From assembly GCA_016197005.1 (NCBI GenBank), contig JACPWO010000001.1:346544-410543 (forward strand): 64,000 bases of DNA, in the 5' to 3' direction. A program made the position numbers and the translations under genes. This stretch comes from Candidatus Anderseniibacteriota bacterium. GTDB taxonomy: Bacteria > Patescibacteriota > Andersenbacteria > UBA10190. A model generated the notes under the pieces. That model was not told the origin of the DNA. It saw only the letters and a program-made list of their open reading frames with translations, and did not search any database. Shown piece after piece: positions 1,667-40,754 of this stretch (positions within the stretch are counted from its first letter, which is position 1; every line of letters begins with the position of its first letter).

Positions 1667-1668
1667 AA

Positions 1669-2436
1669 TTAATACTCTCGCTTCATTCCATCAAAGGCGA
1701 TTGTGTACTGTGGGAATTTCTGCTCTAAGTCAGCATGCGTCAGATCTTGATACGATCCAATATTTGTCAGAATAATCTCCTTCGCACTAAGCTTTCTTAA
1801 GAATGGAATAATCTGTTCCTTCTGAAGGTGGGTTGGATCATCACTAATATCTGATTCTAAATACGTAGCGTCCGTGATAATAGCGTCACTGTCTTTAACG
1901 AGTTCGGCTGTTTTTATGGGAATGCCGCGCAAGTCTGAAAGGTAAGCAATCTTTTTGTTGGTTGTCATGTCTTCAAAAAAGAATCCGTCCGTATCCTCAA
2001 CATGATTAATAGTGATAGGGGTGATACGGACATTATCTATCTCAAATGGTTTGTACGACTCAAATACCTGGAAATCTACGTTAATATGGCTCATACGGGA
2101 GTCGTACCACTCTTTTGTTATGCTGTTGCCATAGACGGTGAGTTTGTTTTTCTCGGTATACCAATCTAACTCCATTAACCCGAAAAGGTGATCATAGTGC
2201 CAGTGGGAAATGAGGAAAGCATCAGGTTTGCCGAGCTTGAATTTCCATGATTGGAGCCGAATATCTGGAGTAGCTTCGACAATAATATTTTTGCCATGTT
2301 CAGTTTGGATATGGGCTGAGGTTCTAAAACGAAAATCTTTGGAATCCCACTCTACCTTCTGGCTAATTTCGTCGTCGCCAAAAGGCGCTGGAATTCCTTG
2401 CCAACAACCGCTGCCGAGAAAAGTTAATTTAATCAT
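1669..2436 (-). CDS. MBL-fold metallo-hydrolase
   Basis: HxHxDH motif SHWHYDHLFG. There are 2 nt between its start and the stop of the upstream NUDIX gene. Confidence 0.7.
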   Translation of the reverse strand: MIKLTFLGSGCWQGIPAPFGDDEISQKVEWDSKDFRFRTSAHIQTEHGKNIIVEATPDIRLQSWKFKLGKPDAFLISHWHYDHLFGLMELDWYTEKNKLTVYGNSITKEWYDSRMSHINVDFQVFESYKPFEIDNVRITPITINHVEDTDGFFFEDMTTNKKIAYLSDLRGIPIKTAELVKDSDAIITDATYLESDISDDPTHLQKEQIIPFLRKLSAKEIILTNIGSYQDLTHADLEQKFPQYTIAFDGMKREY

Positions 2437-2517: not shown

Positions 2518-3330
2518 ATGATCATTGACGCTCACACCCATATCGGCGCCATGGGTAAAGATGACCGCAATGTGACGGTGGCCGATTTACTGCAATCAAT
2601 GGATGAGGCAGGAATTGACATGTCGTTGATTCTCGCGAATGACATTGCCGTGTCGGATGATTGGCGTGGTATGTCAGCTGATGACATTCTGACTCAATGT
2701 GCAGGGAACGATCGAATAAAAGTGATTGGTAATATTACTATTAGTCGAGATATCAATGATCAGCTTCTACGACTCAGAGAACATGTGGAAGCTGGGGTTG
2801 TTGTTGGTATTAAACTGTACCCTGGCTATGAAAACTTTTATCCGTCAGACGAGCGACTGAAGCCAGTGTATGAGTTTTGCCAAAAATTTAATATTCCGGT
2901 CGTGCTGCACACAGGGTTTCTTCTGCAAGGATCTCCCGGTATTCAGGAGCAAGCCCATCCTAACAGTATTGATAAGATCGTTAATCTTTTCCCCGAGCTT
3001 ATTTTCATAATGGCTCATTTTGGCAATCCATGGACAGCTGAAGCAGCCAGGGTTATAGCCCAGCATCAAAACATTTACGCTGATCTTTCTGGTTTTTTTA
3101 CGGAATACGATGAACATATCTCTCTAGAAGAAAAGGCTGATTTTTACCAGAAAATGAAAGAATTTATTAGTATTACTGGCAATCTAAAGAAATGCCTCTT
3201 TGGTACTGATTGGCCACTCTACAGTCAGAAAGAATATCTGGCAGCAGTACAAGAACTGCCTATGAAAGATGAGGAGCGTGATCTCTTTTTTTGGAAAAAT
3301 TCGAGCAGGATATTTGGTCTGGCAGCATAA
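2518..3330 (+). CDS. Amidohydrolase-family metal-dependent hydrolase (TIM barrel)
   Basis: N-terminal IIDAHTHIG metal-binding motif typical of amidohydrolase_2 / TatD-like folds. Internal His/Asp residues are at expected positions. Confidence 0.6.
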   Translation: MIIDAHTHIGAMGKDDRNVTVADLLQSMDEAGIDMSLILANDIAVSDDWRGMSADDILTQCAGNDRIKVIGNITISRDINDQLLRLREHVEAGVVVGIKLYPGYENFYPSDERLKPVYEFCQKFNIPVVLHTGFLLQGSPGIQEQAHPNSIDKIVNLFPELIFIMAHFGNPWTAEAARVIAQHQNIYADLSGFFTEYDEHISLEEKADFYQKMKEFISITGNLKKCLFGTDWPLYSQKEYLAAVQELPMKDEERDLFFWKNSSRIFGLAA

Positions 3331-3352: not shown

Positions 3353-4294
3353 TTATCTGCTAAGCGGTGTCACCGTATACTTCTTTAAAATCTGACAAGG
3401 ATAATAGCCTTTTTTAGCTTCCCTTAATCCAGGCAGTCCAGCATCCTGTTCGAGATTTAAGTATTGACACCCGCGCGTTGCCAGCGCTCGGGCCGTCTCC
3501 TGCCTCAAATAAGGATAGACTCCTGTAAATGAAATTGCATCGGCTTTTTCAAAATGCAAAAGAGCATAAGACTTTCCAACTACTTCGCTGATAGAAAATC
3601 CAATTAGCTGTTTATTAACGAATATCCCAATAGTAATAAGTTGAAATGACTTAGCATGTTTCAGAAGGCGATGAAATGGAAGAAACTCATCCGTCTCCTG
3701 CGTGTTAAACCCTTTTTGTTTTGCCCAGAATGAAAATAGTTCTTGAATCATCGTCTGAACATCAGGATCATTTAAATCACACTCATTCGTCGTTGACCGA
3801 TATAGCTTGCGGAAACGGTTTACGAAATTTCGCTTTCCGCGTAGGGCATGACTTCTGTATGTCATGAGTTCAGGGATAGACAGAATATAATCAAAATTGT
3901 TTGGGTCCTCCTTAATGGTAAACTGATCCGCTCTGATTCCATTGATGCATTCCTCAGGCACAAGACGTAATTTCTTCTTCAAACCTTTGTTGTCAACAAA
4001 AGCAAATAGCTGGTTCAGAGCTTCTTGGGATAGATGACGGCTTAAGAATGAATAAAATGGCTTTCCGGTAAAGTAGTCAGTAAATCGTACTATGAGGTTT
4101 TCTTCAAGCTGGGATAACTGTATTTCATCCTTTACGTTCCAAATCCATAAACTAGTAAAGTTGTAGTCTGAATAAGGCAAAAAAGATTGCGTAAAGGATT
4201 CAATCGCAAGGTGGTCAGCGAGCTGTAATTTCTTGAAATTAGGGAATTGAGGAATCACGTTCGTCATACTATTGCAGTAATCCTTGTTTTTCAA
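3353..4294 (-). CDS. Conserved hypothetical, DUF2156-like (MprF C-domain / VlmA-like aminoacyl-tRNA-dependent transferase fold); paralog of 16605..17534
   Basis: N-terminal pattern FPNFKKLQLADHLAIESF...YSDYNFTSLWIWN resembles the start of DUF2156 / LPG_synthase_C proteins of about 300 aa. There is a clear paralog elsewhere in the window. Family assignment is from memory, not a search. Confidence 0.45.
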   Translation of the reverse strand: MKNKDYCNSMTNVIPQFPNFKKLQLADHLAIESFTQSFLPYSDYNFTSLWIWNVKDEIQLSQLEENLIVRFTDYFTGKPFYSFLSRHLSQEALNQLFAFVDNKGLKKKLRLVPEECINGIRADQFTIKEDPNNFDYILSIPELMTYRSHALRGKRNFVNRFRKLYRSTTNECDLNDPDVQTMIQELFSFWAKQKGFNTQETDEFLPFHRLLKHAKSFQLITIGIFVNKQLIGFSISEVVGKSYALLHFEKADAISFTGVYPYLRQETARALATRGCQYLNLEQDAGLPGLREAKKGYYPCQILKKYTVTPLSR

Positions 4295-4349
4295 ATTATT
4301 ATCTTTCTGCTAGCTTAATTAGTTACGGCCAATAAGATATTTTCTCAAA

Positions 4350-5426
4350 ATGAACCATACCCCTACAACTGTGAATTCTTACAATGAATGGGATCCTCTG
4401 GAGGAGGTCATTGTTGGCGTTGTTGAGGGCTCAACCATTCCCCAGTGGCATGTGACGCTTGAGGCAACAATGCCAAAAAAATATTGGAGCCTATTTCGTC
4501 AAAAAGGCGGAAAATTGTTTCCAGAGGGTCAAATAACTGCGGCAAAAAAAGAACTTGATGAATTTTGTCGTTTATTGGAATCAGAAGGAGTTACTGTCCG
4601 TCGTCCTGATACAATTCCTTTCAATAAACCTTACTCCTCTCCAGAATGGACTTCTCACGGCGGATTATATGCTGCAATGCCGAGAGACATATTACTAGTC
4701 ATAGGAAACGAAATAATTGAATCGCCTATGGCTTGGCGATCCAGATATTTTGAGATTGAAGCCTATCGTTCACTTTTGAAGGATTACTTTGCAAAAGGAG
4801 CAAAGTGGAGTTCAGCACCCAAACCATTGCTGGGTGGTAAACTTTATAATGATGCCTATGGTAAAAACCAAACTCAGGACAAATTAGAATACGCAATCAC
4901 TGAACATGAACCTGTCTTTGATGCCGCAGATTTCATACGCTGCGGCAGAGATATTTTCGTACAGCAAAGCAACGTCACTAACCAATTAGGAATTGAGTGG
5001 TTGCAAAGACACTTGGGTAGTACTTACAGGATTCATACGCTTAAGTTTGAAGATAAACACCCAATGCATATCGATGCAACTTTTATGCCGCTAGCCCCAG
5101 GAAAGCTCCTCATTAATCCTGAGAGAGTCGGGCAGATTCCTTCAATGTTTAAGGGCTGGGATATTTTGACTGCACCGCGACCATCTATTCCAGGTGAACA
5201 CCCTCTTTATTTTACGAGCAAATGGGTAAGCATCAATGTCCTGATGCTCGATGAAGAAAGAGTGATTGTGGAGAAAAATGAATTACCGTTAATACATTCC
5301 TTCAAAAGCTGGGGTTTTAAAGTAATCCCTTGTAGTTTCCGTAATTTCAATACTTTTGGTGGTTCATTTCATTGCGCCACAGTGGACATTCGGAGAAGAG
5401 GTACGCTCCAATCATATTTTGACTAA
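4350..5426 (+). CDS. Amidinotransferase (AGAT / StrB1 family)
   Basis: N-terminal NEWDPLEEVIVG, catalytic-His region PMHIDATFMPL and C-terminal catalytic Cys in GGSFHCATVD. Length 358 aa is typical for the family. Confidence 0.75.
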   Translation: MNHTPTTVNSYNEWDPLEEVIVGVVEGSTIPQWHVTLEATMPKKYWSLFRQKGGKLFPEGQITAAKKELDEFCRLLESEGVTVRRPDTIPFNKPYSSPEWTSHGGLYAAMPRDILLVIGNEIIESPMAWRSRYFEIEAYRSLLKDYFAKGAKWSSAPKPLLGGKLYNDAYGKNQTQDKLEYAITEHEPVFDAADFIRCGRDIFVQQSNVTNQLGIEWLQRHLGSTYRIHTLKFEDKHPMHIDATFMPLAPGKLLINPERVGQIPSMFKGWDILTAPRPSIPGEHPLYFTSKWVSINVLMLDEERVIVEKNELPLIHSFKSWGFKVIPCSFRNFNTFGGSFHCATVDIRRRGTLQSYFD

Positions 5427-5451
5427 ATTGAAGCGTCGTCAGTTTACTGAA

Positions 5452-6657
5452 TCAAATTTTTTCAATTGCTTTCTCGAGCAAATCAATATCTCTTGTAACG
5501 CAGACCCGAGTCCATGATCCTTCATCCATAGGATTAAGCATAAATGCCTCACCGGGATAGGTGGCCAAGCCTTTACTCATAAATTCTCTTACAAAATCTG
5601 GTGCGGGAAGATCTTTATAGTAGCGAAAGAAAATACTATTTCCCCCATCGGGAGGGATTACGTCTTTTACTTTCGGATGGTTTTTTAGCTTGGCAACTAT
5701 ACGTTTGTTGTACTGTTCTTGAAGATTCATATTATTTGAAATTGTATCTGTATAATTTGTAATTTCTGGCTCTGAAAAATATTTAAGATCAGGATGTTTG
5801 ACTCCTGAAAGTTCTTTATAACGTAGTGCAATATCAAGAAGAAGGAGATAATCTGAAATAATCCCGTTCGAAATATTTCTGACCATTTGAATTTTTTCAA
5901 TACCGGGCAGTAGTCTCTTATCACCCACACAGTAACCACAACGAATTCCAGTCATTCCCGGCCGATCTTTAGACGGACCAAAAAACTTAACATAATTTTT
6001 ATAGCCACCATTGACCCCAGCAATATGGACGGGCTGTTGATCTCTATATAGAGAGTCAATGTAGATCTCATCAGACAATATAAAGAAATCGTACCGACGC
6101 GATAACTTAACTAAAGCATTAACCCATTCTCGAGAGAACGATTTACCAGTTGGATTATTTGGGTTAGAAAAAAGAACAGCTGCCGTCCTTGTGCTCACAG
6201 TATTCTCTAATTGATCAACTGTTGGTAGAAAATCATTCTCACGCAAGGAACGGATTACAATAGGCATTCCTTTCGCACTCTCAACCACCGAATGAAATAT
6301 TGGATAATCCGGAGAAAATAGTACTACCTCTCGTCTCTTATCATCCAAATCAAACACTGCTTGAAGAACAGGATATATAAGGTTGCTGACTCCGCTTCCA
6401 ATAAAAGAAAATGGCTTATCATTTGTCTTGCGTTGAGCTAGATACCCTTCATACTCAATCACTAGTTTTCTCAGACGTTTAATACCACCAAAGTCAGAAT
6501 AGGTTAGTCTATGGTACTCAAATACCAAGTCAATGGCGCGTTTAAATATTACGGGCATTTTAAATACACGAGTGTCATAGTCCATCCATTCCAGCCGATC
6601 TAGGCTTTCAAATTCAAGAAATTCCTTCTCGTAATCAAACATCCTCTTATAAATCAT
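5452..6657 (-). CDS. PLP-dependent aminotransferase, class I/II
   Basis: NPNNPTG motif and a lysine region SKDRPGMTGIRCGY. Length is about 400 aa. It is the last gene of the minus-strand operon. Confidence 0.7.
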   Translation of the reverse strand: MIYKRMFDYEKEFLEFESLDRLEWMDYDTRVFKMPVIFKRAIDLVFEYHRLTYSDFGGIKRLRKLVIEYEGYLAQRKTNDKPFSFIGSGVSNLIYPVLQAVFDLDDKRREVVLFSPDYPIFHSVVESAKGMPIVIRSLRENDFLPTVDQLENTVSTRTAAVLFSNPNNPTGKSFSREWVNALVKLSRRYDFFILSDEIYIDSLYRDQQPVHIAGVNGGYKNYVKFFGPSKDRPGMTGIRCGYCVGDKRLLPGIEKIQMVRNISNGIISDYLLLLDIALRYKELSGVKHPDLKYFSEPEITNYTDTISNNMNLQEQYNKRIVAKLKNHPKVKDVIPPDGGNSIFFRYYKDLPAPDFVREFMSKGLATYPGEAFMLNPMDEGSWTRVCVTRDIDLLEKAIEKI

Positions 6658-6672
6658 ATGCGAATAGCAAAG

Positions 6673-7077
6673 TTATGTACTCTTTTCATAAACAAAGCCG
6701 CGGCGAATTATTTTGACCTTAAATTTTTTAAGACCGTACGCTAAAAATTCTCTTTTAAGAGTATCAATCGCAACTTCTGTTTTCTCCCGCGCACTACAGG
6801 TAAAAAGATCAATAGCGATATATTTCTTCTCTGGCCATGTATGAAAGGCAAGGTGAGATTCAGAAAGTAGATAGAAACCTGTCAGTCCAAATTCCTTAAA
6901 TTCATGAAATTCCTTTTTGATTACATTCAATTCTGCATGGTTAACGACATTCTCGATTTTCTTCCCGAATGTTGTTGAATGATGCAATTCTTCTGGATAG
7001 TTCTTCAAAAGAATTTCAATCAGAGCGTGATATCCGCGATTTTGATTATTTTTTCTCTTGGTAAAAATGCCTAACAT
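6673..7077 (-). CDS. speH: S-adenosylmethionine decarboxylase proenzyme, pyruvoyl type (SpeH/class 1B)
   Basis: FGLTGFYLLSESHLAFHTWPE and AIDLFTC match the SpeH ESH-S-HTWPE processing motif. The start was moved to the internal Met (MLGIF...), because the track ORF 6673..7188 would overlap speE by about 100 nt. Confidence 0.8.
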   Translation of the reverse strand: MLGIFTKRKNNQNRGYHALIEILLKNYPEELHHSTTFGKKIENVVNHAELNVIKKEFHEFKEFGLTGFYLLSESHLAFHTWPEKKYIAIDLFTCSAREKTEVAIDTLKREFLAYGLKKFKVKIIRRGFVYEKST

Positions 7078-7084
7078 AGCTGCC

Positions 7085-7972
7085 TTACCCTGAATTACCA
7101 TTGAAAAAGTTTGGGACAGTAAAAATAGAACGTAGGTTCCGTGGAGTAATGTATTTGAGGCTAATTTTGGAATCCATGCGTTTTTCAAATTGATTTTCGG
7201 TCATATCCAAGGGGTTTAAAGCCTGATCGTTAGTGGCAAGTAAGAACCCCCAAGAACATTCAAAGAAAGGTACATAGACTCGATAGGAAAAGACGTTGGC
7301 GAAAATGTTGTGTAGGAGTTTACTCATAGCTAAATGCTTGTGATAGTGTATTTCGGTTAACTCGGAAGAATGCATAGCCAAGATACCATTCGTTTTTAAT
7401 CTTTTCTTAATTAATTCATAAAAATCAGCTTGCTCGCGAGCTTCGGCTGCGCCGAGATTAAAAAAGTTGACGTCAGTAATATCTGAAATTATTACATCGT
7501 ACTGATTAACTGTACTTTTAAGAAAATCGCCCGCGTTTCTAAATTGTAAATTCACTTTCTGATGGTCATACGAATTATGATGCATTTCCTTAAGGTGCTT
7601 TTGAAATAGCTGAACGGCCTGACGATCAACATCAATAGCGTCAATGTTTTTTATATGGTCATATTTTAGTAGCTCTCTCAAAGAAGCACCCTCGCCGGCA
7701 CCTAACACCAGTACACGAAAATTGTGATTGTGCTGGCTACAAACCATCGCGGGATGTACTAGGCATTCATGGTATATCCATTCATCTTTAGTCGCACTTT
7801 GCGGTATGCCGTCAATGAATAGACTCAATCCATAGTCATAGAGGTCATAAATTTCAACCTTTTGAAAAGGTGTTTGTTCTTGAACGATGACTTCTTTAAT
7901 CCGATGACGGATTATTTCGTTTTTACAGTAGGCATCTTCAGCCCATTCTTGTAGTAATAACATCGCTATCAA
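7085..7972 (-). CDS. speE: Polyamine aminopropyltransferase (spermidine synthase family)
   Basis: VLVLGAGEGASLRELLKY, IDAIDVDRQAV and YDVIISDITD (dcSAM and amine binding motifs). It sits directly upstream of speH. Confidence 0.75.
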   Translation of the reverse strand: MIAMLLLQEWAEDAYCKNEIIRHRIKEVIVQEQTPFQKVEIYDLYDYGLSLFIDGIPQSATKDEWIYHECLVHPAMVCSQHNHNFRVLVLGAGEGASLRELLKYDHIKNIDAIDVDRQAVQLFQKHLKEMHHNSYDHQKVNLQFRNAGDFLKSTVNQYDVIISDITDVNFFNLGAAEAREQADFYELIKKRLKTNGILAMHSSELTEIHYHKHLAMSKLLHNIFANVFSYRVYVPFFECSWGFLLATNDQALNPLDMTENQFEKRMDSKISLKYITPRNLRSIFTVPNFFNGNSG

Positions 7973-8916
7973 CTAGGATTAGACCCGGTAATAGGTCGCG
8001 TCTGGAATATGTAGAGGTGCTTACCAAAAAAGGACCATTCAATGTCCTGGGAAGCTTGCATGATCTTTTCAATTTTTGATGCCGTTTTAGCAACAGTCAT
8101 AATCGCTTCTCCCGTGAGCTTTTGATTCTTCTGTTCCTTTCTAATGATATTCTTTTGCAACTTTTCCCCTTTATAACTGTTCAGATTTTTGTTCTGAGAA
8201 CCTACTTCAATATCGAGAATTATTCCCTTTTTCTTATCGATCCAATATCTATCTGGTGTCACATCGCCATGAACCAAAAGTTCACCAAGCCCCCAAATGG
8301 CCTCGATAACGATGAGATTAGAATCGTCACTGCTGGGATCTTTCGTAAAACACACTCCGGATACGTCACTATTGATCATTTGTTGAACAAGCACTGCCAT
8401 GTCATTTGCAAAAGGCAGATTATGTTTATTCGCATACATCAATGCTCGGGATGTGTAGAGAGATGCCCAACATTTTTTAATATGCTGCATCAAACCACCT
8501 GCATTGACAAAGGTGTATGTATCGAATTCTCCGGCCCATGAGTGATTCTCTTGATCCTCACAAGACGCTGAGGATCGTACGGCTACATAGTCAGTATTGA
8601 GCTCTTGAAAGGCTGCACTAATTGCCGATTCAATGTGATGGGGAATTTTAAGTTCTTCCAAAACTTTTCGCAAACTTTGAGACACACTATCCACATTTTT
8701 CATTTTTGAGTCTCGAAGCTCAGTTAAAAGGCTATCTATTTTTTTGTCCAATCCATCTGACGTTCTAATATCACTCAAAACTGAAGCAAGGATAACAAAG
8801 CCCTTAGGAACATTTATATGATTTGTTACTAATGTGCCAAGAGGCAAGGCTTTACCACCCACCTCTTGTACATCGAATTTATGTACTTGAGCTAATGGTA
8901 TGGTTACTTTTGTCAT
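7969..8916 (-). CDS. PEP-utilising enzyme, ATP-binding N-domain only (PPDK_N / PEP synthase-like phosphotransferase)
   Basis: VQEVGGKALPLGTLV...VPKGFVI matches the PPDK_N consensus GGKxxNLxxL...VPxGFxI. There is no swivel His domain in this ORF. It overlaps the upstream gene by 4 nt. Confidence 0.7.
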   Translation of the reverse strand: MTKVTIPLAQVHKFDVQEVGGKALPLGTLVTNHINVPKGFVILASVLSDIRTSDGLDKKIDSLLTELRDSKMKNVDSVSQSLRKVLEELKIPHHIESAISAAFQELNTDYVAVRSSASCEDQENHSWAGEFDTYTFVNAGGLMQHIKKCWASLYTSRALMYANKHNLPFANDMAVLVQQMINSDVSGVCFTKDPSSDDSNLIVIEAIWGLGELLVHGDVTPDRYWIDKKKGIILDIEVGSQNKNLNSYKGEKLQKNIIRKEQKNQKLTGEAIMTVAKTASKIEKIMQASQDIEWSFFGKHLYIFQTRPITGSNPS

Positions 8917-8928
8917 ACAAAGTGCAGT

Positions 8929-10098
8929 TTAGATAATCGAGACTTCTGCATTGGTGGCGTCAACCAATAGCTGCATACCTGTTTTCAAAGTTTTAGTTGC
9001 ATAAGATGTTCCAACAATACAAGGTATCTTCATTTCTCGAGCAATTAAAGCTGCATGAGAAGTAATACCACCTTCATCCGTGACAATGGCTGCCACATCT
9101 TTAAATACTGGAACCAACTCTGGTGATGTCATGGGAGCGACTAATATACCACCCCTTTCAAAGTCCTCTATGAATTGTTCATATTCCTCAGTAGTAACGA
9201 TCGAGGGCAACACTACAGCCTTGCCAGTAACTCTTCCGGGATAAGCGGTTGAGCCCTTAATAGTACGTCCAGTCTGGGTGGGCATAAAAGAGTCTCTAAA
9301 ATCAATAAATTGCTTATCGGTAATCTCAATAAATTCAGTACCATTGACTTTGAGAGCAAACGCTTCCTTGCGTTTGTTGGCATTATTGATATCAGGCTTT
9401 ATGTCCTTCAAGAGCAGATCTTTAAGTTCTCGATAGTTGAGACTCGAAACTTGGGTTACTGCCAAATAAAACCTTCGTGCTGTTTCCTCAAGCAAGGCAT
9501 CAGCATAATGAGTTGTGATTAAACTGTTACGTTTTGCTTCAAATCGCTTTTTTGATATCTCGCGTAGAAACTGGATTATCTGCTTAATCTCCTGCTCAAG
9601 CGCCATACCAACATCAACCCCCGCTAAAAGTTTGGCTTTGAGATATTCTCTTTTTTCCTTGTTCTTCTCCTGCTTTTCTAAGAGTTGGTCTATTTTCCCC
9701 TCTAGTAAGTCAAGATAATGTGGCTCTGTATAACGATAGTAATACAAAAATCGCCTCATTAAATCGAACAATTCTTTATATAAATCAAACAGGGCGCTGT
9801 TACTTGCCTTTCTGAGTACTTGTTTGGAATAGCGTTTTCTTGTCACCTCTGTTTCTTTGGCTATAGCCAAAAGATTTTTCTCAACATCTGCATATTTATC
9901 TTGGACAAATAGAGATTCGCCAAGTTTTTGTATCATAGTGAGTTCTCTAACAGTAGCGTAGGCGCTGAGCTGAGTGTGCTCATACACCAATACCCCCTCT
10001 TTTTGAAAATAGGTTGGCGCAACTACGTTTTCTGTCCACAAATAATCGATATAGCTTTCTCTCCAAAGAAAAACATGCTTTTCTGCCGCCTTTTTCAT
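8929..10098 (-). CDS. PEP-utilising enzyme, substrate-domain plus C-terminal phospho-His swivel domain
   Basis: C-terminal DEGGITSHAALIAREMKIPCIVGT is the PEP-utilizers mobile-domain signature with the phosphoryl-carrier His. The N-terminal 280 aa have no recognisable motif. Confidence 0.7.
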   Translation of the reverse strand: MKKAAEKHVFLWRESYIDYLWTENVVAPTYFQKEGVLVYEHTQLSAYATVRELTMIQKLGESLFVQDKYADVEKNLLAIAKETEVTRKRYSKQVLRKASNSALFDLYKELFDLMRRFLYYYRYTEPHYLDLLEGKIDQLLEKQEKNKEKREYLKAKLLAGVDVGMALEQEIKQIIQFLREISKKRFEAKRNSLITTHYADALLEETARRFYLAVTQVSSLNYRELKDLLLKDIKPDINNANKRKEAFALKVNGTEFIEITDKQFIDFRDSFMPTQTGRTIKGSTAYPGRVTGKAVVLPSIVTTEEYEQFIEDFERGGILVAPMTSPELVPVFKDVAAIVTDEGGITSHAALIAREMKIPCIVGTSYATKTLKTGMQLLVDATNAEVSII

Positions 10099-11204
10099 AT
10101 ATTCTGCGTTCGTATTATAAATTTCAGTTGGTTTGTTCTAACTAAGTTAAATACATCATAGTTAGTCTCAGAAACTTTCTCGATTATTTTTCTGGATTGA
10201 GAAGCTGATATCTGGTCTACGTCAAGATAGATATAAGCAATTCCTTCCTTAACACTAACTTTGATCTTATATTGGGGGACATGTCCCAAGACTTCTTGCA
10301 GAATCTCTTGCATGTTTTTCTGTCTGATCTTCACCCCATCTAGCAGATAATGGGTTTTGCCAACCCGGCCACGTAGTATTAAACGAGGATTCCTTAAACC
10401 ACAAGAGCATTGATCTCGCAAAATTTTGCCAGCATCACCAGTGCAATAGCGAATAATCGGCTGAGCATGACACATTAAGTTAGTCATCACGATCTCGCCA
10501 AATCTACCATCTGGGACAATATTGTCGCTTTTAAGAGATTTAATCTCCAAATAGACTTTATCCTCTCGGTAGTGATAGCCATTATGATTTTTGCACTCTA
10601 CCCCAACTACTCCTTCCGTAAGACCATAAGCATCAAATATCTCTGCATTATAGATTTTCTCCAGCCTCGCTCTTTGTTTTTCATTCATGGGCTCACCTGT
10701 AGTTTCCAGAACCTTAAAGTTCCTTTTAGATAATATGTCCGCATACTCCTCAAGTTTTGAAGGCAACGTAGAGATCACTGTTGGAGCGACAGCATCCAAC
10801 ACTTCGGTAATTGCTTCTTTAGATCTTAAATCAATCGGTATAACAGAATTACCCGCTGCAATGTGACCAAGACACGTAAGCGGCCCAACAGCCCAGAACG
10901 AGTGATCCATGAGCACGGCCACTGTTTCGCCACCAGCAATTCCTTCTACCTCACAAAACCATTGAATATAATCAGCGGTATTTCGAATATCGCTTGAGTT
11001 GGAATAGAGCGCTTTAGGTTTCTTAGTCGTGCCGCTCGTAAAATATACGCGTAAATCACTCTCAAATCTGAAAAGTAACTCATTGATTTTTGCCTCAAGC
11101 GAAGTCTCGTGCATGAATGGTAGTGATTTCAGAAGAGCAGTGAAATTTCTGCCTAGAACCCGCTCTCTTGCCTCATCTTCTATTTTAGTAAAAATCTGAC
11201 TCAT
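10095..11204 (-). CDS. PaaK/CapK-like adenylate-forming ligase (coenzyme F390 synthetase family)
   Basis: YFTSGTTKKPKALY (SGTTGKPK-type AMP-binding loop) and YGLTEG. Length 369 aa fits PaaK-like enzymes. Confidence 0.65.
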   Translation of the reverse strand: MSQIFTKIEDEARERVLGRNFTALLKSLPFMHETSLEAKINELLFRFESDLRVYFTSGTTKKPKALYSNSSDIRNTADYIQWFCEVEGIAGGETVAVLMDHSFWAVGPLTCLGHIAAGNSVIPIDLRSKEAITEVLDAVAPTVISTLPSKLEEYADILSKRNFKVLETTGEPMNEKQRARLEKIYNAEIFDAYGLTEGVVGVECKNHNGYHYREDKVYLEIKSLKSDNIVPDGRFGEIVMTNLMCHAQPIIRYCTGDAGKILRDQCSCGLRNPRLILRGRVGKTHYLLDGVKIRQKNMQEILQEVLGHVPQYKIKVSVKEGIAYIYLDVDQISASQSRKIIEKVSETNYDVFNLVRTNQLKFIIRTQNI

Positions 11205-12523
11205 ACTCTTGAGCTCCTAAATTTTCTTAGATCACGAATTTCAACTTTTCTATTTTGCTGGGAAGTATCTCTATCTATGCTCCGGATAATAACAGCGATA
11301 TGTGCATACTCCTCAAACATTACATCATTAAAATCAAGCGATAATGTTCTAATAGCTTGAGTTACTTTTTGAGTGAGAAACTTTTTCTGCCTCTGTGTTG
11401 ATACATCTTTTGCATTAAAGAAAGCTGTAAATTTTATCAAATCTTTGCCGCCATGATCGTCTTTGATCACTACATCACATTTTTGAACTTTTGGATTGAG
11501 TCCGTCCAAAGCTTGTTCTACTTGATATGAATGGAGATTCACTCCTCCTGATATTTCATAGTAGTCACCATCTCTGCCAGTCCACTGCAGTCTTGGCCAA
11601 TCACTTCCGCACTGACATTTCTGGTAATTGATTTTTCCACGATCTCCAGACTTGTACCGAATAATAGGAATTGCCTCTGAGGTTAGATCGGTTAACAGAA
11701 CAGAACCTTCCGACTCAGTTGGTAAATTATTTTGTGGATCAACCACCTCAACTAGTATTCTGTCAGGATCAAAATGATAGCCACATTGATATTTACACTC
11801 CATTCCCATAAAACATTCACTTGATCCATACGATGCCAGAAGATTAACGCCGTACTTATCTTTGTAGTAACCCCTCAGCTCGTTTGAAACGTGATCTCCT
11901 GAAGTTATGACCTTCTCAATTGGAGAAAGCTTGCCTTCCTCAATCGAGCTTTCGATAAACTTTAGAATACTCGGCGTTGTGGCTATTATATTAATATTCA
12001 TTTGTTTAGCCTGATTCCATATGTGCCGCATGACATACTGGTCATTACTAAGACCAGCAGGAAGAACATTGGATTCCAAAATATGAAAAGCGTGCTGGGC
12101 AGAATGGCCAGCAGCCCACGGACCAAACGGCAATGCAATCCATACGCTGTCAAATTTCGTAATGCCAGCAAGCCGGTAACAATTAGCGCGGTATTCATTT
12201 CGAGCTCGCCATTCCTTTTTTGTTACTGGAATAACCTTTGGTTTTCCGGTAGTGTCGCCGGTCAAAAAATAATAAGCGACGTTACTTCGCTTAATAGCGA
12301 CATTTTTTATTGCGAATAATGACTTATCGGCCGGTTTAAGTTTGAAGAAGTCATCCCAATCAACCGAAGCCTCATTCCATATTCCTTCCCAGATCTGTTG
12401 ATAGTAAATAGATTTTTTGTATGCCTCTTTTGCCAGCGACCATACACTGGCTAAAACCTGATCCTGGTATGTTGTTTTAGGTTCGAGGTCGGCATTTTTG
12501 TTAATTGCTAAAATATTAGCCAT
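11201..12523 (-). CDS. PaaK/CapK-like adenylate-forming ligase, second paralog
   Basis: FLTGDTTGKPKVIPVT and YGSSEC. The start is placed at internal Met MANILAINK. The track ORF extends to 12568, which would leave only 37 bp to the divergent gene. Confidence 0.6.
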   Translation of the reverse strand: MANILAINKNADLEPKTTYQDQVLASVWSLAKEAYKKSIYYQQIWEGIWNEASVDWDDFFKLKPADKSLFAIKNVAIKRSNVAYYFLTGDTTGKPKVIPVTKKEWRARNEYRANCYRLAGITKFDSVWIALPFGPWAAGHSAQHAFHILESNVLPAGLSNDQYVMRHIWNQAKQMNINIIATTPSILKFIESSIEEGKLSPIEKVITSGDHVSNELRGYYKDKYGVNLLASYGSSECFMGMECKYQCGYHFDPDRILVEVVDPQNNLPTESEGSVLLTDLTSEAIPIIRYKSGDRGKINYQKCQCGSDWPRLQWTGRDGDYYEISGGVNLHSYQVEQALDGLNPKVQKCDVVIKDDHGGKDLIKFTAFFNAKDVSTQRQKKFLTQKVTQAIRTLSLDFNDVMFEEYAHIAVIIRSIDRDTSQQNRKVEIRDLRKFRSSRV

Positions 12524-12605
12524 ACGCCTAAAAATTGCATAGAATGCGGAATTTGGCAATATTGGCACACTATAAAAAACCTGATATAGTCCTCAGGATT
12601 ACCAT

Positions 12606-13076
12606 ATGCATATTTATGTCACATCCGGCACGGGCACCGGCCCCACCCCCTTAGCTGCTTTTGATGCGGCCGTGATGGCAGCCAGTGAATCGAATCATAA
12701 TATGATTTATCTTTCTTGCTTTATTCCCCCCGGCAGTGTGATAGTACGCGCTCGAAACCCTCTTCTACTTAAGTCGTGGGGTCAACGAATTTATGTTGTG
12801 ATGTCTCGTCAGGATGCTTCTGAAATAGGACAGGAAGCTTGGACTAGTTTGGGTTGGGTGCAGGATCAGAGCGGGCGAGGTATGTTTGTTGAACATCATG
12901 GAAGAAGCAAGAAGGAAGTTCATAATGATATTCAAGCCACTCTAAATTTTATGGTAAGAAGCCGCAATATGGACTTTGGCCCTATTGAGCACGAACTTAC
13001 GGGCATCAAATGTGAAGGCCAGCCCGTATGCGCCGTAACCATGGCAGTGTATAAAATTGAAAACTGGGAGAGTTAA
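12606..13076 (+). CDS. Pyruvoyl-dependent arginine decarboxylase-like protein (PdaD family)
   Basis: VTSGTGTGPTPLAAFDAAVMAA...NMIYLSCFIPP parallels the PdaD N-terminal consensus (tSGvGeGetpLnAFDaAL...NLvrvSSIiPP). It is 156 aa and transcribed divergently from the operon. Confidence 0.65.
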   Translation: MHIYVTSGTGTGPTPLAAFDAAVMAASESNHNMIYLSCFIPPGSVIVRARNPLLLKSWGQRIYVVMSRQDASEIGQEAWTSLGWVQDQSGRGMFVEHHGRSKKEVHNDIQATLNFMVRSRNMDFGPIEHELTGIKCEGQPVCAVTMAVYKIENWES

Positions 13077-13106: not shown

Positions 13107-13583
13107 TTATTGGGATTCTTTTTCTTGTAAATCTCTAATTTTTCTTTCCGCACCCGCTATATCTATTACTCCCTTAGCAGCCGTGAATACCTCTTCAGGC
13201 GTTGTTTTTGCCTTCACTAAATAATCTGCCGCTTGTAGCTCCCTGGCTCTGTCGTGATCCTGTTTCGTATCAAGATTAGACAAAATAATGACTGGAATAT
13301 CCTTAATATCTGGATCTCCTTTCAGCATGATTAAAAAGTTGAAGCCATAATTCTTATCAGTCTCAGAGACTGGAGTATTAGGTTCTTTGCCTAAAATAAG
13401 ATCGAGTAAGATTACGTCGGGCTTCTTCTCTCGAGCCAAGCGATCACCCTCTACGGTATTGTTCGCGCTGATAAACTCGATCTCTTCATGGGATCGCGCA
13501 GTCATCTCATACAATTTAAGGAGCATTGGATCATCATCGATCATGAGAATCTTATTTTTTACTACATTTTTAGAATCAGTCAT
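13107..13583 (-). CDS. Response regulator, receiver domain only (CheY-like)
   Basis: ILMIDDDPMLL...DVILLDLILG...ILSN has the phospho-acceptor Asp and the acidic pocket. No output domain. Confidence 0.75.
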   Translation of the reverse strand: MTDSKNVVKNKILMIDDDPMLLKLYEMTARSHEEIEFISANNTVEGDRLAREKKPDVILLDLILGKEPNTPVSETDKNYGFNFLIMLKGDPDIKDIPVIILSNLDTKQDHDRARELQAADYLVKAKTTPEEVFTAAKGVIDIAGAERKIRDLQEKESQ

Positions 13584-13600
13584 AAGTGTGATAAAAAATA

Positions 13601-14011
13601 TTAACCCTGAAAATCGTGGCTGCCAAGAAATTGGTGAACATGCTCAACAATTTCTCGGGGTAGATACTTCGCTTTCAAAATATAGTCAGCTGCCCCTAAT
13701 CGTTTTACCTCATCAGCCATGTCTTTTTCCCTTTTATTAGACAGGATAATCACCGGAATATTTGCAGTCGAAGGATCTTCTTTAATTTTCTTTAAAACCT
13801 CTAGTCCGTCTAAATCTAGCGTCCCTTCCAAAATAAGGTCAAGCAAGACCAGATCAGGGAGATCATTCTTGACACTCTCCAATCCCTCCTGCGCTGTAGT
13901 CACTGCCTTAAAGTTTTTATACCCCAATTGTTTAAACTGAAAATCATACATAAAACGATGCTGCTTGTTATCTTCGATCATCAGTATCTTGGCTTCAGTG
14001 GCTTCTGGCAT
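13601..14011 (-). CDS. Response regulator, receiver domain only (CheY-like)
   Basis: ILMIEDNKQHRFMY...DLVLLDLILEG...IILSNK. Second stand-alone REC in tandem. Confidence 0.75.
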   Translation of the reverse strand: MPEATEAKILMIEDNKQHRFMYDFQFKQLGYKNFKAVTTAQEGLESVKNDLPDLVLLDLILEGTLDLDGLEVLKKIKEDPSTANIPVIILSNKREKDMADEVKRLGAADYILKAKYLPREIVEHVHQFLGSHDFQG

Positions 14012-14020
14012 AGGTTATGG

Positions 14021-15735: not shown

Positions 15736-15742
15736 AATACTT

Positions 15743-16582: not shown

Positions 16583-16604
16583 GTTTTCATACTAGCACAA
16601 AAGT

Positions 16605-17534: not shown

Positions 17535-17631
17535 TAATTAAGGGTAACACTTAGGGCTACAGTCATAAACACATGTTATGAAAAAACCTGAGGGCTCGAA
17601 TGCGAACCGCTCAGGTTGACTCTCGCTTTGA

Positions 17632-22811: not shown

Positions 22812-22820
22812 AGCATCTGT

Positions 22821-24750: not shown

Positions 24751-24883
24751 CCCCACTCCCTTTCCTTACACTCTGTGGCCTAATATGCGGCTTTGAGTTA
24801 CCTACAGCTTAGGCGACTTACCAACTGGATATGTGCACAAGGCAGCGGCACTGTGTCCTTACTAAGTCATATAACTAAGAGCC

Positions 24884-34658: not shown

Positions 34659-34661
34659 ATA

Positions 34662-40752: not shown

Positions 40753-40754
40753 AC

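What the first reader, a model, noticed from the sequence alone, without database searches (positions are those of the whole stretch)
3353..13076. Candidate undescribed polyamine / guanidino-amine tailoring pathway (7-gene overlapping operon plus divergent and flanking genes)
Operon layout, seen directly:
- Genes 12523 to 5452 on the minus strand form one tightly packed unit with 4-nt overlaps at 11204/11201, 10098/10095 and 7972/7969.
- Order is PaaK-like ligase, PaaK-like ligase, PEP-utiliser His-domain protein, PEP-utiliser ATP-grasp protein, SpeE aminopropyltransferase, SpeH pyruvoyl AdoMetDC, class I/II aminotransferase.
- A PdaD-like pyruvoyl arginine decarboxylase is transcribed divergently from the same 82-bp promoter region.
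- An AGAT/StrB1-family amidinotransferase and a DUF2156-like gene lie immediately beyond.

What established knowledge predicts: the agmatine to N1-aminopropylagmatine to spermidine route needs only ArgDC, AdoMetDC, SpeE and an agmatinase-type ureohydrolase.

What differs here:
- No ureohydrolase is present.
- The core is joined to two adenylating amide-bond-forming enzymes, a phosphotransferase, a transaminase and an amidino-group transferase.

Inference: the product is likely a conjugated or N-acylated/amidinated polyamine, or a different aminopropylated metabolite, not plain spermidine. I know of no described pathway with this gene combination.
Basis: partly seen in the sequence, partly recalled or inferred. 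Interest (0 to 1): 0.8.

Follow-up and report, generated by a model that had tools for sequence, protein, structure and literature searches.

The report
Polyamine genes fused to unknown ligase-kinase module
A tiny-genome groundwater bacterium (Candidatus Andersenbacteria) carries a tightly packed operon that joins polyamine-making enzymes to a rare four/five-gene set of two acid-activating ligases, a split rifampin-phosphotransferase-like kinase and a dedicated aminotransferase; the set recurs in related bacteria and its product is unknown, most likely a modified (acylated, transiently phosphorylated) polyamine.

Summary
Seven minus-strand genes (12523→5452) are packed with three 4-nt overlaps, and every family call was confirmed, including an AGAT-type amidinotransferase 55% identical to the human enzyme. 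The source is a Candidatus Andersenbacteria (CPR) MAG.

Comparative genomics changes the picture. The conserved unit is ligase–ligase–His-domain protein–ATP-grasp, found in 14 distinct loci, with an aminotransferase in 12. Each of these clades is very small. SpeE-family genes sit next to this core in 9 of 14 loci, in several different arrangements including SpeH–SpeE fusions, which argues for functional coupling. PdaD, AGAT and DUF2156 occur only in the Andersenbacteria loci.

The "PEP-utiliser" pair is a split rifampin-phosphotransferase/PigC-type small-molecule phosphotransferase, not PEP synthase. A second AdoMet_dc homolog (18071–18430) fits the published pyruvoyl ornithine decarboxylase (SpeDC) signature, so plain spermidine could be made without a ureohydrolase.

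No described pathway matches. The closest logic is phevamine (amidinotransferase plus two ligases on spermidine). The product is unknown. My best guess is an ATP-dependent acyl or aminoacyl conjugate of an aminopropylated amine, made via a phosphorylated intermediate.

The parts
11201..12523 (-). Ligase 1: PaaK-like ANL adenylating enzyme (440 aa from ATG 12523)
   Evidence: PF00501 and PaaK-type NCBIfam hits, all far below equivalog cutoffs. Best PDB matches are PaaK 9s3l/4r1l at E 1e-20, plus NatL2/AjiA1. The clade has about 13 clusters and lacks PF14535. ANL motifs TGDTTGKPK, YGSSE, SGD and GRDGD can be read directly in the translation.
10095..11204 (-). Ligase 2: PaaK-like/DVU_1553-like ANL adenylating enzyme (369 aa), a paralog of ligase 1
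   Evidence: NF045666 at 146 bits (cutoff 300) and PF00501. PDB 4r1l at E 2e-22. 28% identical to Lig1. 4-nt overlaps on both sides.
8929..10098 (-). Substrate-binding plus phospho-His swivel-domain protein of a split RPH/PigC-type phosphotransferase
   Evidence: PF00391 at residues 313-383. Residues 136-388 align to the C-terminal 250 residues of RedH/PigC/Rph models. AF2 model pLDDT 91.5. Best Foldseek hit is rifampin phosphotransferase 5fbu, E 1e-11, TMq 0.50. TDEGGxTSH (His348) is invariant in 15 homologs.
7969..8916 (-). ATP-grasp (PPDK_N) nucleotide-binding subunit of the split phosphotransferase
   Evidence: PF01326 at 261 bits. It matches the N-terminal 310 residues of PEP synthase, PigC, RedH and Rph models. 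It always follows the His-domain gene in the 14 core loci.
7085..7972 (-). SpeE aminopropyltransferase, Thermus triamine/agmatine type
   Evidence: PF01564 at 112 bits; NF002010 at 202 bits (cutoff 260). Best PDB match is T. thermophilus 3anx/1uir at 157 bits, against about 112 for other spermidine synthases, aligned over the full length with GAGEGA and DITD motifs.
6673..7077 (-). SpeH/SpeD class 1b pyruvoyl AdoMet decarboxylase (134 aa)
   Evidence: TIGR03330 at 88 bits, above its cutoff of 75.65. LLSESHLAFHTWPE with the diagnostic Pro.
5452..6657 (-). Dedicated class I aminotransferase
   Evidence: PF00155 at 104 bits. PLP motifs NPNNPTG, SDEIY and GPSKDRPGMTGIRCGY read in the translation. 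Best PDB match is T. maritima AspAT at 2e-25. Only 9 representatives at E<=1e-30 among 1.84 billion proteins. Adjacent to the core in 12 of 14 loci.
12524..12605 (.). 82-bp divergent intergenic region
   Evidence: Sequence read. Promoter-like TTGGCA-17-TATAGT with TG on the + strand at 12562-12590. Overall promoter-like counts in the region do not exceed shuffles.
12606..13076 (+). PdaD-like pyruvoyl arginine decarboxylase homolog with Cys at the pyruvoyl-precursor position
   Evidence: PF01862 at 75 bits; TIGR00286 at 57 bits (cutoff 107). The alignment to M. jannaschii PdaD keeps D35, N47 and E109, but S53 aligns with Cys38 (codon TGC, 12717-12719). L009 also has Cys; the L007 ortholog has Ser (AGC).
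4350..5426 (+). AGAT-family amidinotransferase
   Evidence: E 3e-131 and 55% identity to human AGAT. C407, H303, D305, R322 and M302 are kept and N300 is His. Present only in the window, L007 and L009.
3353..4294 (-). DUF2156 / LPG_synthase_C protein, copy a
   Evidence: PF09924 at 90 bits. Syntenic in L007 and L009.
2518..3330 (+). Amidohydro_2 metal-dependent hydrolase/decarboxylase-fold protein (probable accessory)
   Evidence: PF04909 at 120 bits. Homologs sit inside the operon between the ATP-grasp and AT genes in L011 and L089, and beside it in L009. Best PDB match is the uncharacterised BB4693.
1244..2436 (-). NUDIX hydrolase (1244-1666) and PhnP-like MBL phosphodiesterase (1669-2436): possible phosphohydrolase accessories
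   Evidence: Phosphohydrolases of various families neighbour the core in 7 of 14 loci.
13107..15427 (-). Two single-domain response regulators and a histidine kinase
   Evidence: Translations. Syntenic in L008/L009.
15457..17964 (-). Syntenic block: 92-aa protein, 279-aa multi-pass membrane protein, DUF2156 copy b (16605-17534) and a 110-aa EamA-like 4-TM protein
18071..18430 (-). Second AdoMet_dc homolog: probable neofunctionalised pyruvoyl ornithine (or arginine) decarboxylase (SpeDC-like)
   Evidence: PF02675 at 66 bits; TIGR03330 at 38 bits (cutoff 75.65). The centre AMQFIETSSISVHLDE...FIDIFSC keeps Ser/His/Cys, has Gln and Thr, and lacks the AdoMetDC Pro. This matches the SpeDC description in PMC10407285. 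Large conserved family of 565 clusters.

Best explanation
The locus combines two modules.

Module A, the conserved and CPR-restricted core, comprises two paralogous PaaK-like adenylating ligases, a split rifampin-phosphotransferase/PigC-type phosphotransferase (an ATP-grasp subunit plus a substrate-binding/His-swivel subunit) and a dedicated class I aminotransferase.

Module B supplies amines: SpeH makes decarboxylated SAM, a Thermus-type SpeE transfers the aminopropyl group, a PdaD-like enzyme makes agmatine from arginine, a SpeDC-like enzyme probably makes putrescine from ornithine, and an AGAT-type enzyme moves amidino groups between arginine/ornithine and an amine.

The most likely working is as follows. 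Module B makes an aminopropylated amine, either N1-aminopropylagmatine (an amidinospermidine) or spermidine. Each ligase activates a carboxylate as an acyl-adenylate (an amino acid or 2-oxo/aryl acid that the aminotransferase makes or adjusts) and couples it to an amine without CoA. The phosphotransferase uses ATP -> AMP + Pi through a phospho-His to phosphorylate an oxygen of the intermediate or product, either as a transient activating group or as a masking group that neighbouring phosphohydrolases later remove. The product would be an acylated or aminoacylated (guanidino)polyamine.

Shown: gene families, operon packing, conservation, co-occurrence, and the fold of the His-domain protein. 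Inferred: every substrate, the order of steps, amide (rather than CoA-thioester) formation, and the role of the phosphate.
For: Core conservation: Lig1-Lig2-HisDom-ATPgrasp occurs in 14 distinct loci, with AT in 12. Each clade is very small and therefore dedicated.

Coupling to aminopropyl transfer: SpeE-family genes are adjacent in 9 of 14 loci and AdoMet_dc in 8 of 14, in different arrangements. These are in-operon SpeE-SpeH (window, L006, L007, L009), SpeE alone (L092), a fused SpeH-SpeE plus a second SpeE paralog (L012), flanking genes (L013, L091), and a divergent fused SpeH-SpeE (L098).

SpeE is closest to the Thermus agmatine/triamine aminopropyltransferase, and a PdaD homolog is divergently transcribed.

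Both ligases keep the ANL motifs but score far below the PaaK equivalog cutoffs and lack the PaaK C-terminal Pfam domain. Their PDB relatives include NatL2/AjiA1, PaaK-like enzymes that form bonds without CoA (my knowledge of those entries).

The His-domain protein has the RPH fold and an invariant catalytic His. RPH/PigC/HapC enzymes phosphorylate small molecules through His~P.

Phosphohydrolases of six unrelated families neighbour the core in 7 of 14 loci.

There is precedent for amidinospermidine acylated by two ATP-dependent ligases: phevamine.
Against: No substrate has been determined. Five core loci have no SpeE within the available flanks (L003, L005, L011, L089, L096), so the core can work without an adjacent polyamine module. 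Two loci lack the aminotransferase (L096, L098).

PaaK-like enzymes are classically CoA ligases, and CoA dependence cannot be excluded from sequence.

CPR operons are compact, and adjacency alone can mislead.

The phosphohydrolase association involves common gene families and was not tested statistically.

The PdaD copy in this genome has Cys at the pyruvoyl site and may be slow or inactive.

Plain spermidine synthesis is possible from the genes present.
Confidence: 0.42

Rival explanations
1. There are two unrelated functions side by side. The polyamine genes simply make the cell's spermidine, by ornithine -> putrescine -> spermidine via the SpeDC-like enzyme, SpeH and SpeE, and/or by arginine -> agmatine -> aminopropylagmatine. 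The ligase/phosphotransferase/aminotransferase core does something else (for example salvage or modification of amino or aryl acids, or xenobiotic phosphorylation) and is co-located only because CPR genomes are compact.
For: A complete ureohydrolase-free spermidine route is plausibly encoded. Five core loci have no SpeE nearby. RPH-type enzymes are known as drug- or xenobiotic-modifying enzymes. Relatives of the His-domain protein occur in unrelated contexts (L010, L014) and as tandem arrays (L029, L030).
Against: SpeE/SpeH adjoin the core in 9 of 14 loci across Andersenbacteria, Saccharibacteria and Moraniibacteriota. The arrangements differ and the SpeE types are of different origin, including fusions placed directly against the core, which is hard to explain without selection for linkage. 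In the window SpeE overlaps the ATP-grasp gene by 4 nt.
Confidence: 0.2
2. The aminopropyltransferase does not act on an ordinary polyamine precursor. Instead it aminopropylates a product of the core, for example a phosphate ester or another nucleophile installed by the RPH-like enzyme. This would be analogous to the aminopropyl decoration on the phosphoramidate of microcin C, but reached by decarboxylating SAM first. The product would be an aminopropylated phospho-metabolite rather than an acyl-polyamine.
For: Divergent, truncated SpeE-like paralogs (240-254 aa; 119-145 bits against a cutoff of 260) accompany the core in L012, L013, L091 and L098, in L098 fused to SpeH. Loci L012, L013 and L098 show no diamine-forming decarboxylase in the flanks. 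The phosphotransferase and SpeE genes are adjacent and overlapping in the window. The microcin C analogy rests on my own knowledge.
Against: The window's SpeE keeps the Asp residues of the amine-deprotonating DxTD motif, is closest to an agmatine-using enzyme, and sits beside an arginine decarboxylase homolog. No SpeE-family enzyme is known to me to alkylate a phosphate oxygen.
Confidence: 0.12
3. The core recycles or supplies substrates for SAM/dcSAM chemistry. One version is a non-canonical methylthioadenosine/methionine salvage route in which the aminotransferase makes methionine from its 2-oxo acid, the RPH-like enzyme acts as the sugar kinase, and neighbouring phosphatases and a cupin play the later roles.
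For: The aminotransferase is usually adjacent to SpeE/SpeH. Phosphatases, and in L003 a cupin, follow the core. SpeE releases methylthioadenosine (established biochemistry).
Against: No known salvage route uses two ANL adenylating enzymes, and these are the most conserved part of the core. No isomerase, dehydratase or enolase homologs were seen. Loci without SpeE still keep the core.
Confidence: 0.07
4. The core builds a cofactor-like molecule with two amide bonds and one phosphate, following the logic of pantothenate -> 4'-phosphopantetheine (ligase, kinase, ligase, pyruvoyl decarboxylases). The polyamine or pyruvoyl-decarboxylase genes would supply a 3-carbon amine unit.
For: The count of activities matches: two ligases, one kinase, an aminotransferase and several pyruvoyl decarboxylase homologs. 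NUDIX hydrolases are frequent neighbours. CPR bacteria generally lack canonical cofactor pathways (my knowledge).
Against: There is no homology to any pantothenate/CoA enzyme, no pantoate-forming genes and no thiol-introducing step. This rival is purely an analogy of reaction counts.
Confidence: 0.04

Closest known systems
hsv operon / phevamine A biosynthesis (Pseudomonas syringae, Erwinia amylovora; PMC6187163)
   Same: An AGAT-family amidinotransferase (the window protein matches HsvA at E 2e-122) works with two ATP-dependent amide-forming ligases to give an acylated amidinospermidine. N1-aminopropylagmatine, the expected PdaD+SpeH+SpeE product, is itself an amidinospermidine (a regioisomer).
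   Different: HsvB/HsvC are ATP-grasp ligases, whereas the ligases here are ANL/PaaK-like. hsv uses preformed spermidine and has no SpeE, SpeH, ArgDC, aminotransferase or phosphotransferase. AGAT is present in only 3 of the 14 core loci.
N1-aminopropylagmatine route to spermidine (Thermus thermophilus, Thermococcus kodakarensis)
   Same: An arginine decarboxylase, a pyruvoyl AdoMetDC and an aminopropyltransferase whose closest solved relative is the Thermus agmatine/triamine enzyme.
   Different: No aminopropylagmatine ureohydrolase was detected in the 64-kb window. The genes are embedded in an operon with ligases, a phosphotransferase and an aminotransferase. The PdaD homolog has Cys at the pyruvoyl position.
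Rifampin phosphotransferase / PigC-HapC-RedH / phenylphosphate synthase class (PEP-synthase-like three-domain enzymes)
   Same: An ATP-grasp domain, a helical substrate-binding domain and a swivelling phospho-His domain. Best fold match is RPH-Lm. The catalytic His motif is conserved. The mechanism ATP -> AMP + Pi with His~P transfer to a small molecule is described.
   Different: Here the enzyme is split into two polypeptides (as in phenylphosphate synthase, from my knowledge), with a much shorter substrate-binding domain (about 280 aa against about 410). Scores are far below family cutoffs (205 against 999 for Rph; 211 against 1300 for PigC). The substrate is unknown.
PaaK phenylacetate-CoA ligase and PaaK-like bond-forming enzymes (NatL2/AjiA1, BagE/FevW, coenzyme F390 synthetase)
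   Same: ANL fold and motifs. These are the best PDB and NCBIfam relatives.
   Different: Scores of 79-146 bits against equivalog cutoffs of 300-800. The clade lacks the PF14535 C-terminal domain signature. The two paralogs are always in tandem. The acceptor (CoA, amine or hydroxyl) is unknown.
Neofunctionalised AdoMetDC homologs SpeDC/SpeDA (Li, Liang, Phillips, Michael 2023; PMC10407285)
   Same: A second SpeD homolog sits in a polyamine cluster of a CPR genome, with catalytic Ser/His/Cys retained, no AdoMetDC Pro, and Gln and Thr at positions consistent with the ODC group.
   Different: Activity was not tested. The positions of the Phe and Tyr diagnostics could not be checked because the figure was unavailable. 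None of the published clusters includes the ligase/phosphotransferase core.

Membership tests
N1-aminopropylagmatine spermidine pathway | Arginine decarboxylase present | tested here: inconclusive
   The PvlArgDC Pfam score of 75 bits exceeds GA 22.7, but TIGR00286 scores 57 against a cutoff of 107. The pyruvoyl-precursor Ser53 is Cys in this genome.
N1-aminopropylagmatine spermidine pathway | AdoMet decarboxylase present | tested here: met
   TIGR03330 at 88 bits, above its cutoff of 75.65, with the ESH...HTWPE motif.
N1-aminopropylagmatine spermidine pathway | Agmatine-accepting aminopropyltransferase | tested here: inconclusive
   The closest solved relative is the Thermus agmatine/triamine enzyme (157 bits against about 112 for others). 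NF002010 scores 202 against a cutoff of 260. Substrate choice cannot be read from sequence.
N1-aminopropylagmatine spermidine pathway | Aminopropylagmatine ureohydrolase (arginase family) | tested here: not met
   No GGDH, DAHxD or SxDxDxxDP motif in any frame of the 64-kb window, and no arginase-family hit among the ORFs scanned. The rest of the genome was not available.
hsv / phevamine pathway | HsvA-type amidinotransferase | tested here: met
   E 2e-122 to HsvA 5wpi. The catalytic Cys/His/Asp are retained in the alignment to AGAT. Acceptor specificity was not determined.
hsv / phevamine pathway | Two ATP-grasp amide ligases (HsvB, HsvC) | tested here: not met
   The two ligases are ANL/PaaK-like (PF00501). 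The only ATP-grasp protein is of the PPDK_N type.
Rifampin phosphotransferase / PigC class | ATP-grasp + substrate-binding + swivel His domains with a catalytic His | tested here: met
   PPDK_N at 261 bits on one protein. The RPH-like fold (E 1e-11, TMq 0.50) and the invariant TDEGGxTSH motif are on the other. The architecture is split over two genes.
Rifampin phosphotransferase / PigC class | Score above the curated equivalog cutoff (Rph, PigC, RedH) | tested here: not met
   205 against 999 (Rph), 211 against 1300 (PigC) and 200 against 1350 (RedH) for the ATP-grasp subunit; 62-70 bits for the His-domain subunit.
PEP synthase / pyruvate phosphate dikinase | C-terminal PEP/pyruvate-binding TIM-barrel domain (PEP-utilizers_C) | tested here: not met
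   Neither protein has a PEP-utilizers_C hit. Matches to PEP synthase models cover only positions 5-336 and 356-456 of 798.
PaaK phenylacetate-CoA ligase | Equivalog-level similarity and the PaaK C-terminal domain | tested here: not met
   TIGR02155 scores 79 and 86 against a cutoff of 646. No PF14535 in the window proteins or in most of the clade.
PaaK phenylacetate-CoA ligase | Forms a CoA thioester | not testable with these tools
   Needs an enzyme assay.
L-arginine:glycine amidinotransferase (AGAT) | Catalytic Cys407/His303 and substrate-binding Asp305/Arg322 | tested here: met
   All are conserved in the alignment to 1jdx, with 55% identity overall. Asn300 is His here.
L-arginine:glycine amidinotransferase (AGAT) | Glycine as the amidino acceptor | not testable with these tools
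   Close homologs use glycine (AGAT, CyrA), an amino-ketone (SxtG) or spermidine (HsvA).
SpeDC pyruvoyl ornithine decarboxylase | Ser/His/Cys retained, AdoMetDC Pro absent, diagnostic Gln-Thr-Phe-Tyr | tested here: inconclusive
   Ser/His/Cys are kept, there is no Pro, and Gln and Thr are present in AMQFIETSS. The Phe and Tyr positions could not be mapped without the published figure.
Known anti-phage defence systems (PADLOC) | Any component matches a defence-system model | tested here: not met
   Only a methyltransferase-fold hit of SpeE to mad2.

The most novel reading that the evidence does not exclude
A CPR-specific pathway makes a new class of metabolite: an aminopropylated (guanidino)amine joined to one or two acids by PaaK-like amide synthetases, then O-phosphorylated by a split RPH-type enzyme to drive a further step, for example cyclisation of an N-acyl-aminopropylamine to a cyclic amidine, or release as a masked phospho-prodrug. 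In the Andersenbacteria version the AGAT-type enzyme would replace the missing ureohydrolase by passing the amidino group of aminopropylagmatine back to ornithine. That would regenerate arginine and give a urea-free, arginine-catalytic route to spermidine.
Probability: 0.15. Interest if true: 0.85.

Novelty: new variant of a known kind. Interest (0 to 1): 0.64.

Why it matters
CPR/Patescibacteria have very small genomes with little biosynthetic capacity, yet several lineages keep a costly dedicated module (at least three ATP -> AMP steps plus SAM) tied to polyamine synthesis. Three things would follow from identifying the product:
- It would assign a function to a conserved set of proteins now annotated as hypothetical or "phenylacetate-CoA ligase family".
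- It could reveal a new polyamine conjugate relevant to the episymbiotic lifestyle, such as a host-interaction molecule, an envelope component or a cofactor.
- It would extend the known chemistry of PaaK-like ligases and RPH/PigC-type phosphotransferases.

The locus also offers direct tests of two smaller questions. One is whether an amidinotransferase can substitute for a ureohydrolase in polyamine synthesis. The other is whether a PdaD enzyme can form its pyruvoyl group from cysteine.

Tried and rejected
- **PEP synthase/PPDK reading of the PEP-utiliser pair:** rejected. There is no PEP-utilizers_C domain and the best fold match is RPH.
- **Anti-phage defence system:** no PADLOC match.
- **Literature searches for a described pathway:** nothing relevant for aminopropylagmatine + Patescibacteria, for PaaK-like + PEP-utilizing + aminotransferase, or for RPH + PigC + BGC. 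The HsvA structure paper was not held.
- **GntC-like cyclodehydratase reading of the aminotransferase:** not adopted. It scores 135 bits against a cutoff of 415, barely above generic AspAT models, and the PDB neighbours are AspATs.
- **NatAM-like role for Amidohydro_2:** no sequence support. The only PDB neighbours are uncharacterised proteins.
- **Housekeeping aminotransferase:** rejected, because the clade is very small.
- **Promoter/terminator scans:** counts do not exceed shuffles, so they add little beyond the one site in the 82-bp gap.
- **Pocket analysis of the AF2 model:** coordinates are not exposed to scripts.
- **Strict correlation of Thermus-type SpeE with PdaD+AGAT:** does not hold. 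L006 and L092 have that SpeE type without either gene in the available flanks.
- **Horizontal transfer inferred from low GC (0.38-0.41 in the cluster):** not pursued, because GC is heterogeneous across the window.

Full report
**Observation.** The window comes from a Candidatus Andersenbacteria (CPR/Patescibacteria) metagenome-assembled genome. The His-domain protein is identical to an NCBI protein of that taxon carried on a 576-kb contig. The seven minus-strand genes from 12523 to 5452 are present as described. They have 4-nt overlaps at 11204/11201, 10098/10095 and 7972/7969, and gaps of 7-15 nt elsewhere. Two gene starts needed refinement. Ligase 1 starts at ATG 12523 (440 aa, as in independent gene calls), which leaves the 82-bp gap to the PdaD ATG at 12606. 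SpeH starts at ATG 7077 (134 aa, as in orthologs).

Pfam and NCBIfam confirm every family call. The amidinotransferase has no Pfam hit, but it matches human AGAT at E 3e-131 (55% identity), and also SxtG, the polyamine amidinotransferase HsvA, and StrB1. The catalytic Cys407 and His303 and the binding residues Asp305 and Arg322 are retained, and Asn300 is replaced by His.

**What the individual parts are.** The "PEP-utiliser" pair is not a PEP synthase. Neither protein has the PEP/pyruvate-binding domain. The N-terminal 280 residues of the His-domain protein fold confidently (pLDDT 91.5) into a helical domain, and the best structural match for the whole protein is rifampin phosphotransferase (Foldseek E 1e-11, TMq 0.50). 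The swivel-domain motif TDEGGxTSH is invariant in 15 homologs. RPH, PigC and HapC use an ATP-binding domain, a substrate-binding domain and a swivelling phospho-His domain to phosphorylate small molecules. Here the ATP-binding domain is a separate polypeptide.

The two ligases are paralogs (28% identity) with intact ANL motifs. They score far below all PaaK-type equivalog cutoffs, and their clade lacks the PaaK C-terminal Pfam domain. Their solved relatives include PaaK itself and NatL2/AjiA1.

SpeE aligns over its full length with the Thermus thermophilus triamine/agmatine aminopropyltransferase (157 bits, against about 112 for ordinary spermidine synthases) and keeps the GxGEGA and D-x-T-D motifs. 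SpeH passes its equivalog cutoff and has the ESH...HTWPE motif. The aminotransferase has all the PLP motifs, and its nearest solved relatives are aspartate aminotransferases.

**Comparative genomics.** Full-length relatives of the His-domain protein in species-representative genomes are all from the CPR wherever taxonomy is given: Andersenbacteria, Saccharibacteria and Moraniibacteriota. I combined exact-protein look-ups, the genome scan and a metagenome scan, and found 14 distinct loci carrying Lig1-Lig2-HisDom-ATPgrasp in that order. The tally across these 14 loci:

| Neighbouring gene | Loci |
|---|---|
| Aminotransferase | 12 |
| SpeE-family gene | 9 |
| AdoMet_dc gene | 8 |
| Phosphohydrolase of any kind | 7 |
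| Amidohydro_2 | 4 |
| PdaD plus AGAT | 3 (Andersenbacteria-type loci only) |

The SpeE/SpeH association appears in at least five different arrangements:
- in-operon SpeE-SpeH
- SpeE alone
- a fused SpeH-SpeE of the canonical type plus a truncated SpeE paralog (L012)
- flanking genes (L013, L091)
- a divergently transcribed fused SpeH-SpeE-like gene (L098)

The phosphohydrolases belong to unrelated families: NUDIX, PhnP-like MBL, His_Phos_1, LMWPc, Phosphodiest and Acylphosphatase.

The Lig1 clade has about 13 sequence clusters before scores drop to generic PaaK levels. The aminotransferase has only 9 representatives at E<=1e-30 among 1.84 billion proteins. The full-length His-domain clade has about 18 clusters. 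These are dedicated, co-occurring proteins rather than housekeeping enzymes. Relatives of the His-domain protein also occur alone (L010, L014) and as tandem arrays with a single ATP-grasp gene (L029, L030), so only the whole set defines the module.

**The ureohydrolase argument.** No arginase-family motif is present in any frame of the window. However, the syntenic block contains a second AdoMet_dc homolog (18071-18430), which lies directly beside PdaD in L007. It scores below the AdoMetDC equivalog cutoff (38 against 75.65). It keeps the catalytic Ser, His and Cys, lacks the Pro that marks a bona fide AdoMetDC, and has Gln and Thr around the cleavage site.

Li et al. (PMC10407285) showed experimentally that such second SpeD homologs are pyruvoyl ornithine decarboxylases (SpeDC, diagnostic Gln/Thr/Phe/Tyr) or arginine decarboxylases (SpeDA, no Pro), and that they are common in the CPR. 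The family here is large and well conserved (565 clusters). Ornithine -> putrescine -> spermidine is therefore plausibly encoded without any ureohydrolase, and the absence of that enzyme does not by itself imply an unusual product. A further PLP-dependent Orn/DAP/Arg decarboxylase lies at 37360-38499.

The PdaD homolog keeps Asp35, Asn47 and Glu109 of the M. jannaschii enzyme. The Ser that becomes the pyruvoyl group is Cys here (TGC at 12717-12719) and in L009, whereas L007 has Ser.

**Interpretation.** The best-supported reading is that an amine-supply module has repeatedly been joined to a dedicated conjugation module. The supply module is SpeH and SpeE, plus PdaD-like, SpeDC-like and AGAT in Andersenbacteria. 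The conjugation module is the two adenylating ligases, the RPH-type phosphotransferase and the aminotransferase. The likely product is an acylated or aminoacylated aminopropyl-amine, guanidinylated in this lineage, with a phosphorylated intermediate or masked product. That would be consistent with the recurrent phosphohydrolase neighbours.

The closest described logic is phevamine, in which an HsvA amidinotransferase and two ATP-grasp ligases build Phe-Val-amidinospermidine. The ligase superfamily differs, though, and hsv has no aminopropyl-transfer, aminotransferase or phosphotransferase genes. All substrates, the order of steps, and amide rather than CoA-thioester formation are inferences.

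**Rivals.** I considered four alternatives:
- The polyamine genes and the core have independent functions.
- SpeE aminopropylates a core product rather than a polyamine precursor.
- The core performs a SAM by-product salvage role.
- The core makes a cofactor-like molecule with two amide bonds and one phosphate.

The role of AGAT is open. It could amidinate a polyamine as HsvA does, make a guanidino acid, supply ornithine, or, most interestingly, transfer the amidino group of aminopropylagmatine to ornithine and so replace the ureohydrolase.

**Novelty.** NCBIfam, PADLOC and full-text literature searches gave no described pathway with this gene set. GenBank annotates the proteins as "hypothetical" or "phenylacetate-CoA ligase family". 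All component families are known and polyamine conjugation is a known kind of pathway, so I rate this a new variant of a known kind. It remains uncharacterised and can be tested directly by heterologous expression.

Noticed in passing
window 12717-12719 (PdaD codon 38): The Ser that self-cleaves to form the pyruvoyl cofactor in M. jannaschii PdaD (Ser53) is Cys (TGC) here and in L009, while the L007 ortholog has Ser (AGC). Either the pyruvoyl group forms from Cys, as in proline and glycine reductases (my knowledge), or this copy is impaired.
   Followed up: partly
window 18071-18430 (-): A second AdoMet_dc homolog fits the published SpeDC/SpeDA neofunctionalised decarboxylase signature. It lies outside the finding's coordinates but is syntenic with it.
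   Followed up: yes
window 37360-38499 (-), with 38521-39417 and 40024-44405: A PLP-dependent Orn/DAP/Arg decarboxylase (best model lysA, 211 bits, below the cutoff of 298) sits next to an EamA transporter and a Liv-type amino-acid ABC transporter operon. It may be another source of a diamine.
   Followed up: partly
window 20765-26164 (+), tRNAs at 27961-28047 and 28197-28269: Two DNA methyltransferases (one with a ParB_N domain), a terminase large-subunit-like protein and a serine recombinase, with higher GC (0.49-0.51), lie next to tRNA genes. This looks like a prophage or integrated-element remnant.
   Followed up: no
L029 3769-13034 and L030 608-10564: Five tandem paralogs of the His-domain (substrate-binding + swivel) protein are followed by a single PPDK_N ATP-grasp gene. 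This suggests one ATP-binding subunit serving several substrate-specific subunits in some CPR genomes.
   Followed up: no
L012 12025-13362; L098 7793-8854: Single ORFs fuse AdoMet decarboxylase to an aminopropyltransferase. L012 (445 aa) has both halves above the equivalog cutoffs. L098 (353 aa) has the truncated SpeE-like type.
   Followed up: partly
L012 13352-14074; L013 5649-6413; L091 1537-2283: A clade of short (240-254 aa) divergent SpeE-like proteins (119-145 bits against a cutoff of 260) accompanies the core alongside, or instead of, a canonical SpeE. The acceptor is unknown.
   Followed up: partly
L098 13297-14908; L096 6301-6624; L092 6907-7659; L013 13063-13455; L003 12746-13681; window 1244-2436: Phosphohydrolases of unrelated families (three tandem NUDIX genes, acylphosphatase, His_Phos_1, LMW phosphatase, phosphodiesterase, PhnP-like MBL + NUDIX) lie directly beside the core in 7 of 14 loci. 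Significance was not tested statistically.
   Followed up: partly
window 3353-4294 and 16605-17534 (-): Two paralogous stand-alone DUF2156/LPG_synthase_C proteins (the aminoacyl-tRNA-dependent transferase fold of MprF) are present. One is next to a 279-aa multi-pass membrane protein and a 110-aa EamA-like protein. Whether they aminoacylate a lipid or a pathway product is unknown.
   Followed up: no
L006 14921-18380: Downstream of the operon in L006 are a methyltransferase, a ThiF-family protein and an aromatic amino-acid ammonia-lyase, flanked by several glycosyltransferases. These may be further tailoring genes in that organism.
   Followed up: no
window 29993-33328: A D-Ala-D-Ala ligase family gene (29993-31018, +) lies near a VanW-like protein with a peptidoglycan-binding domain (31547-33328, -). 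Two GAF-domain histidine kinases follow at 33315-36152.
   Followed up: no
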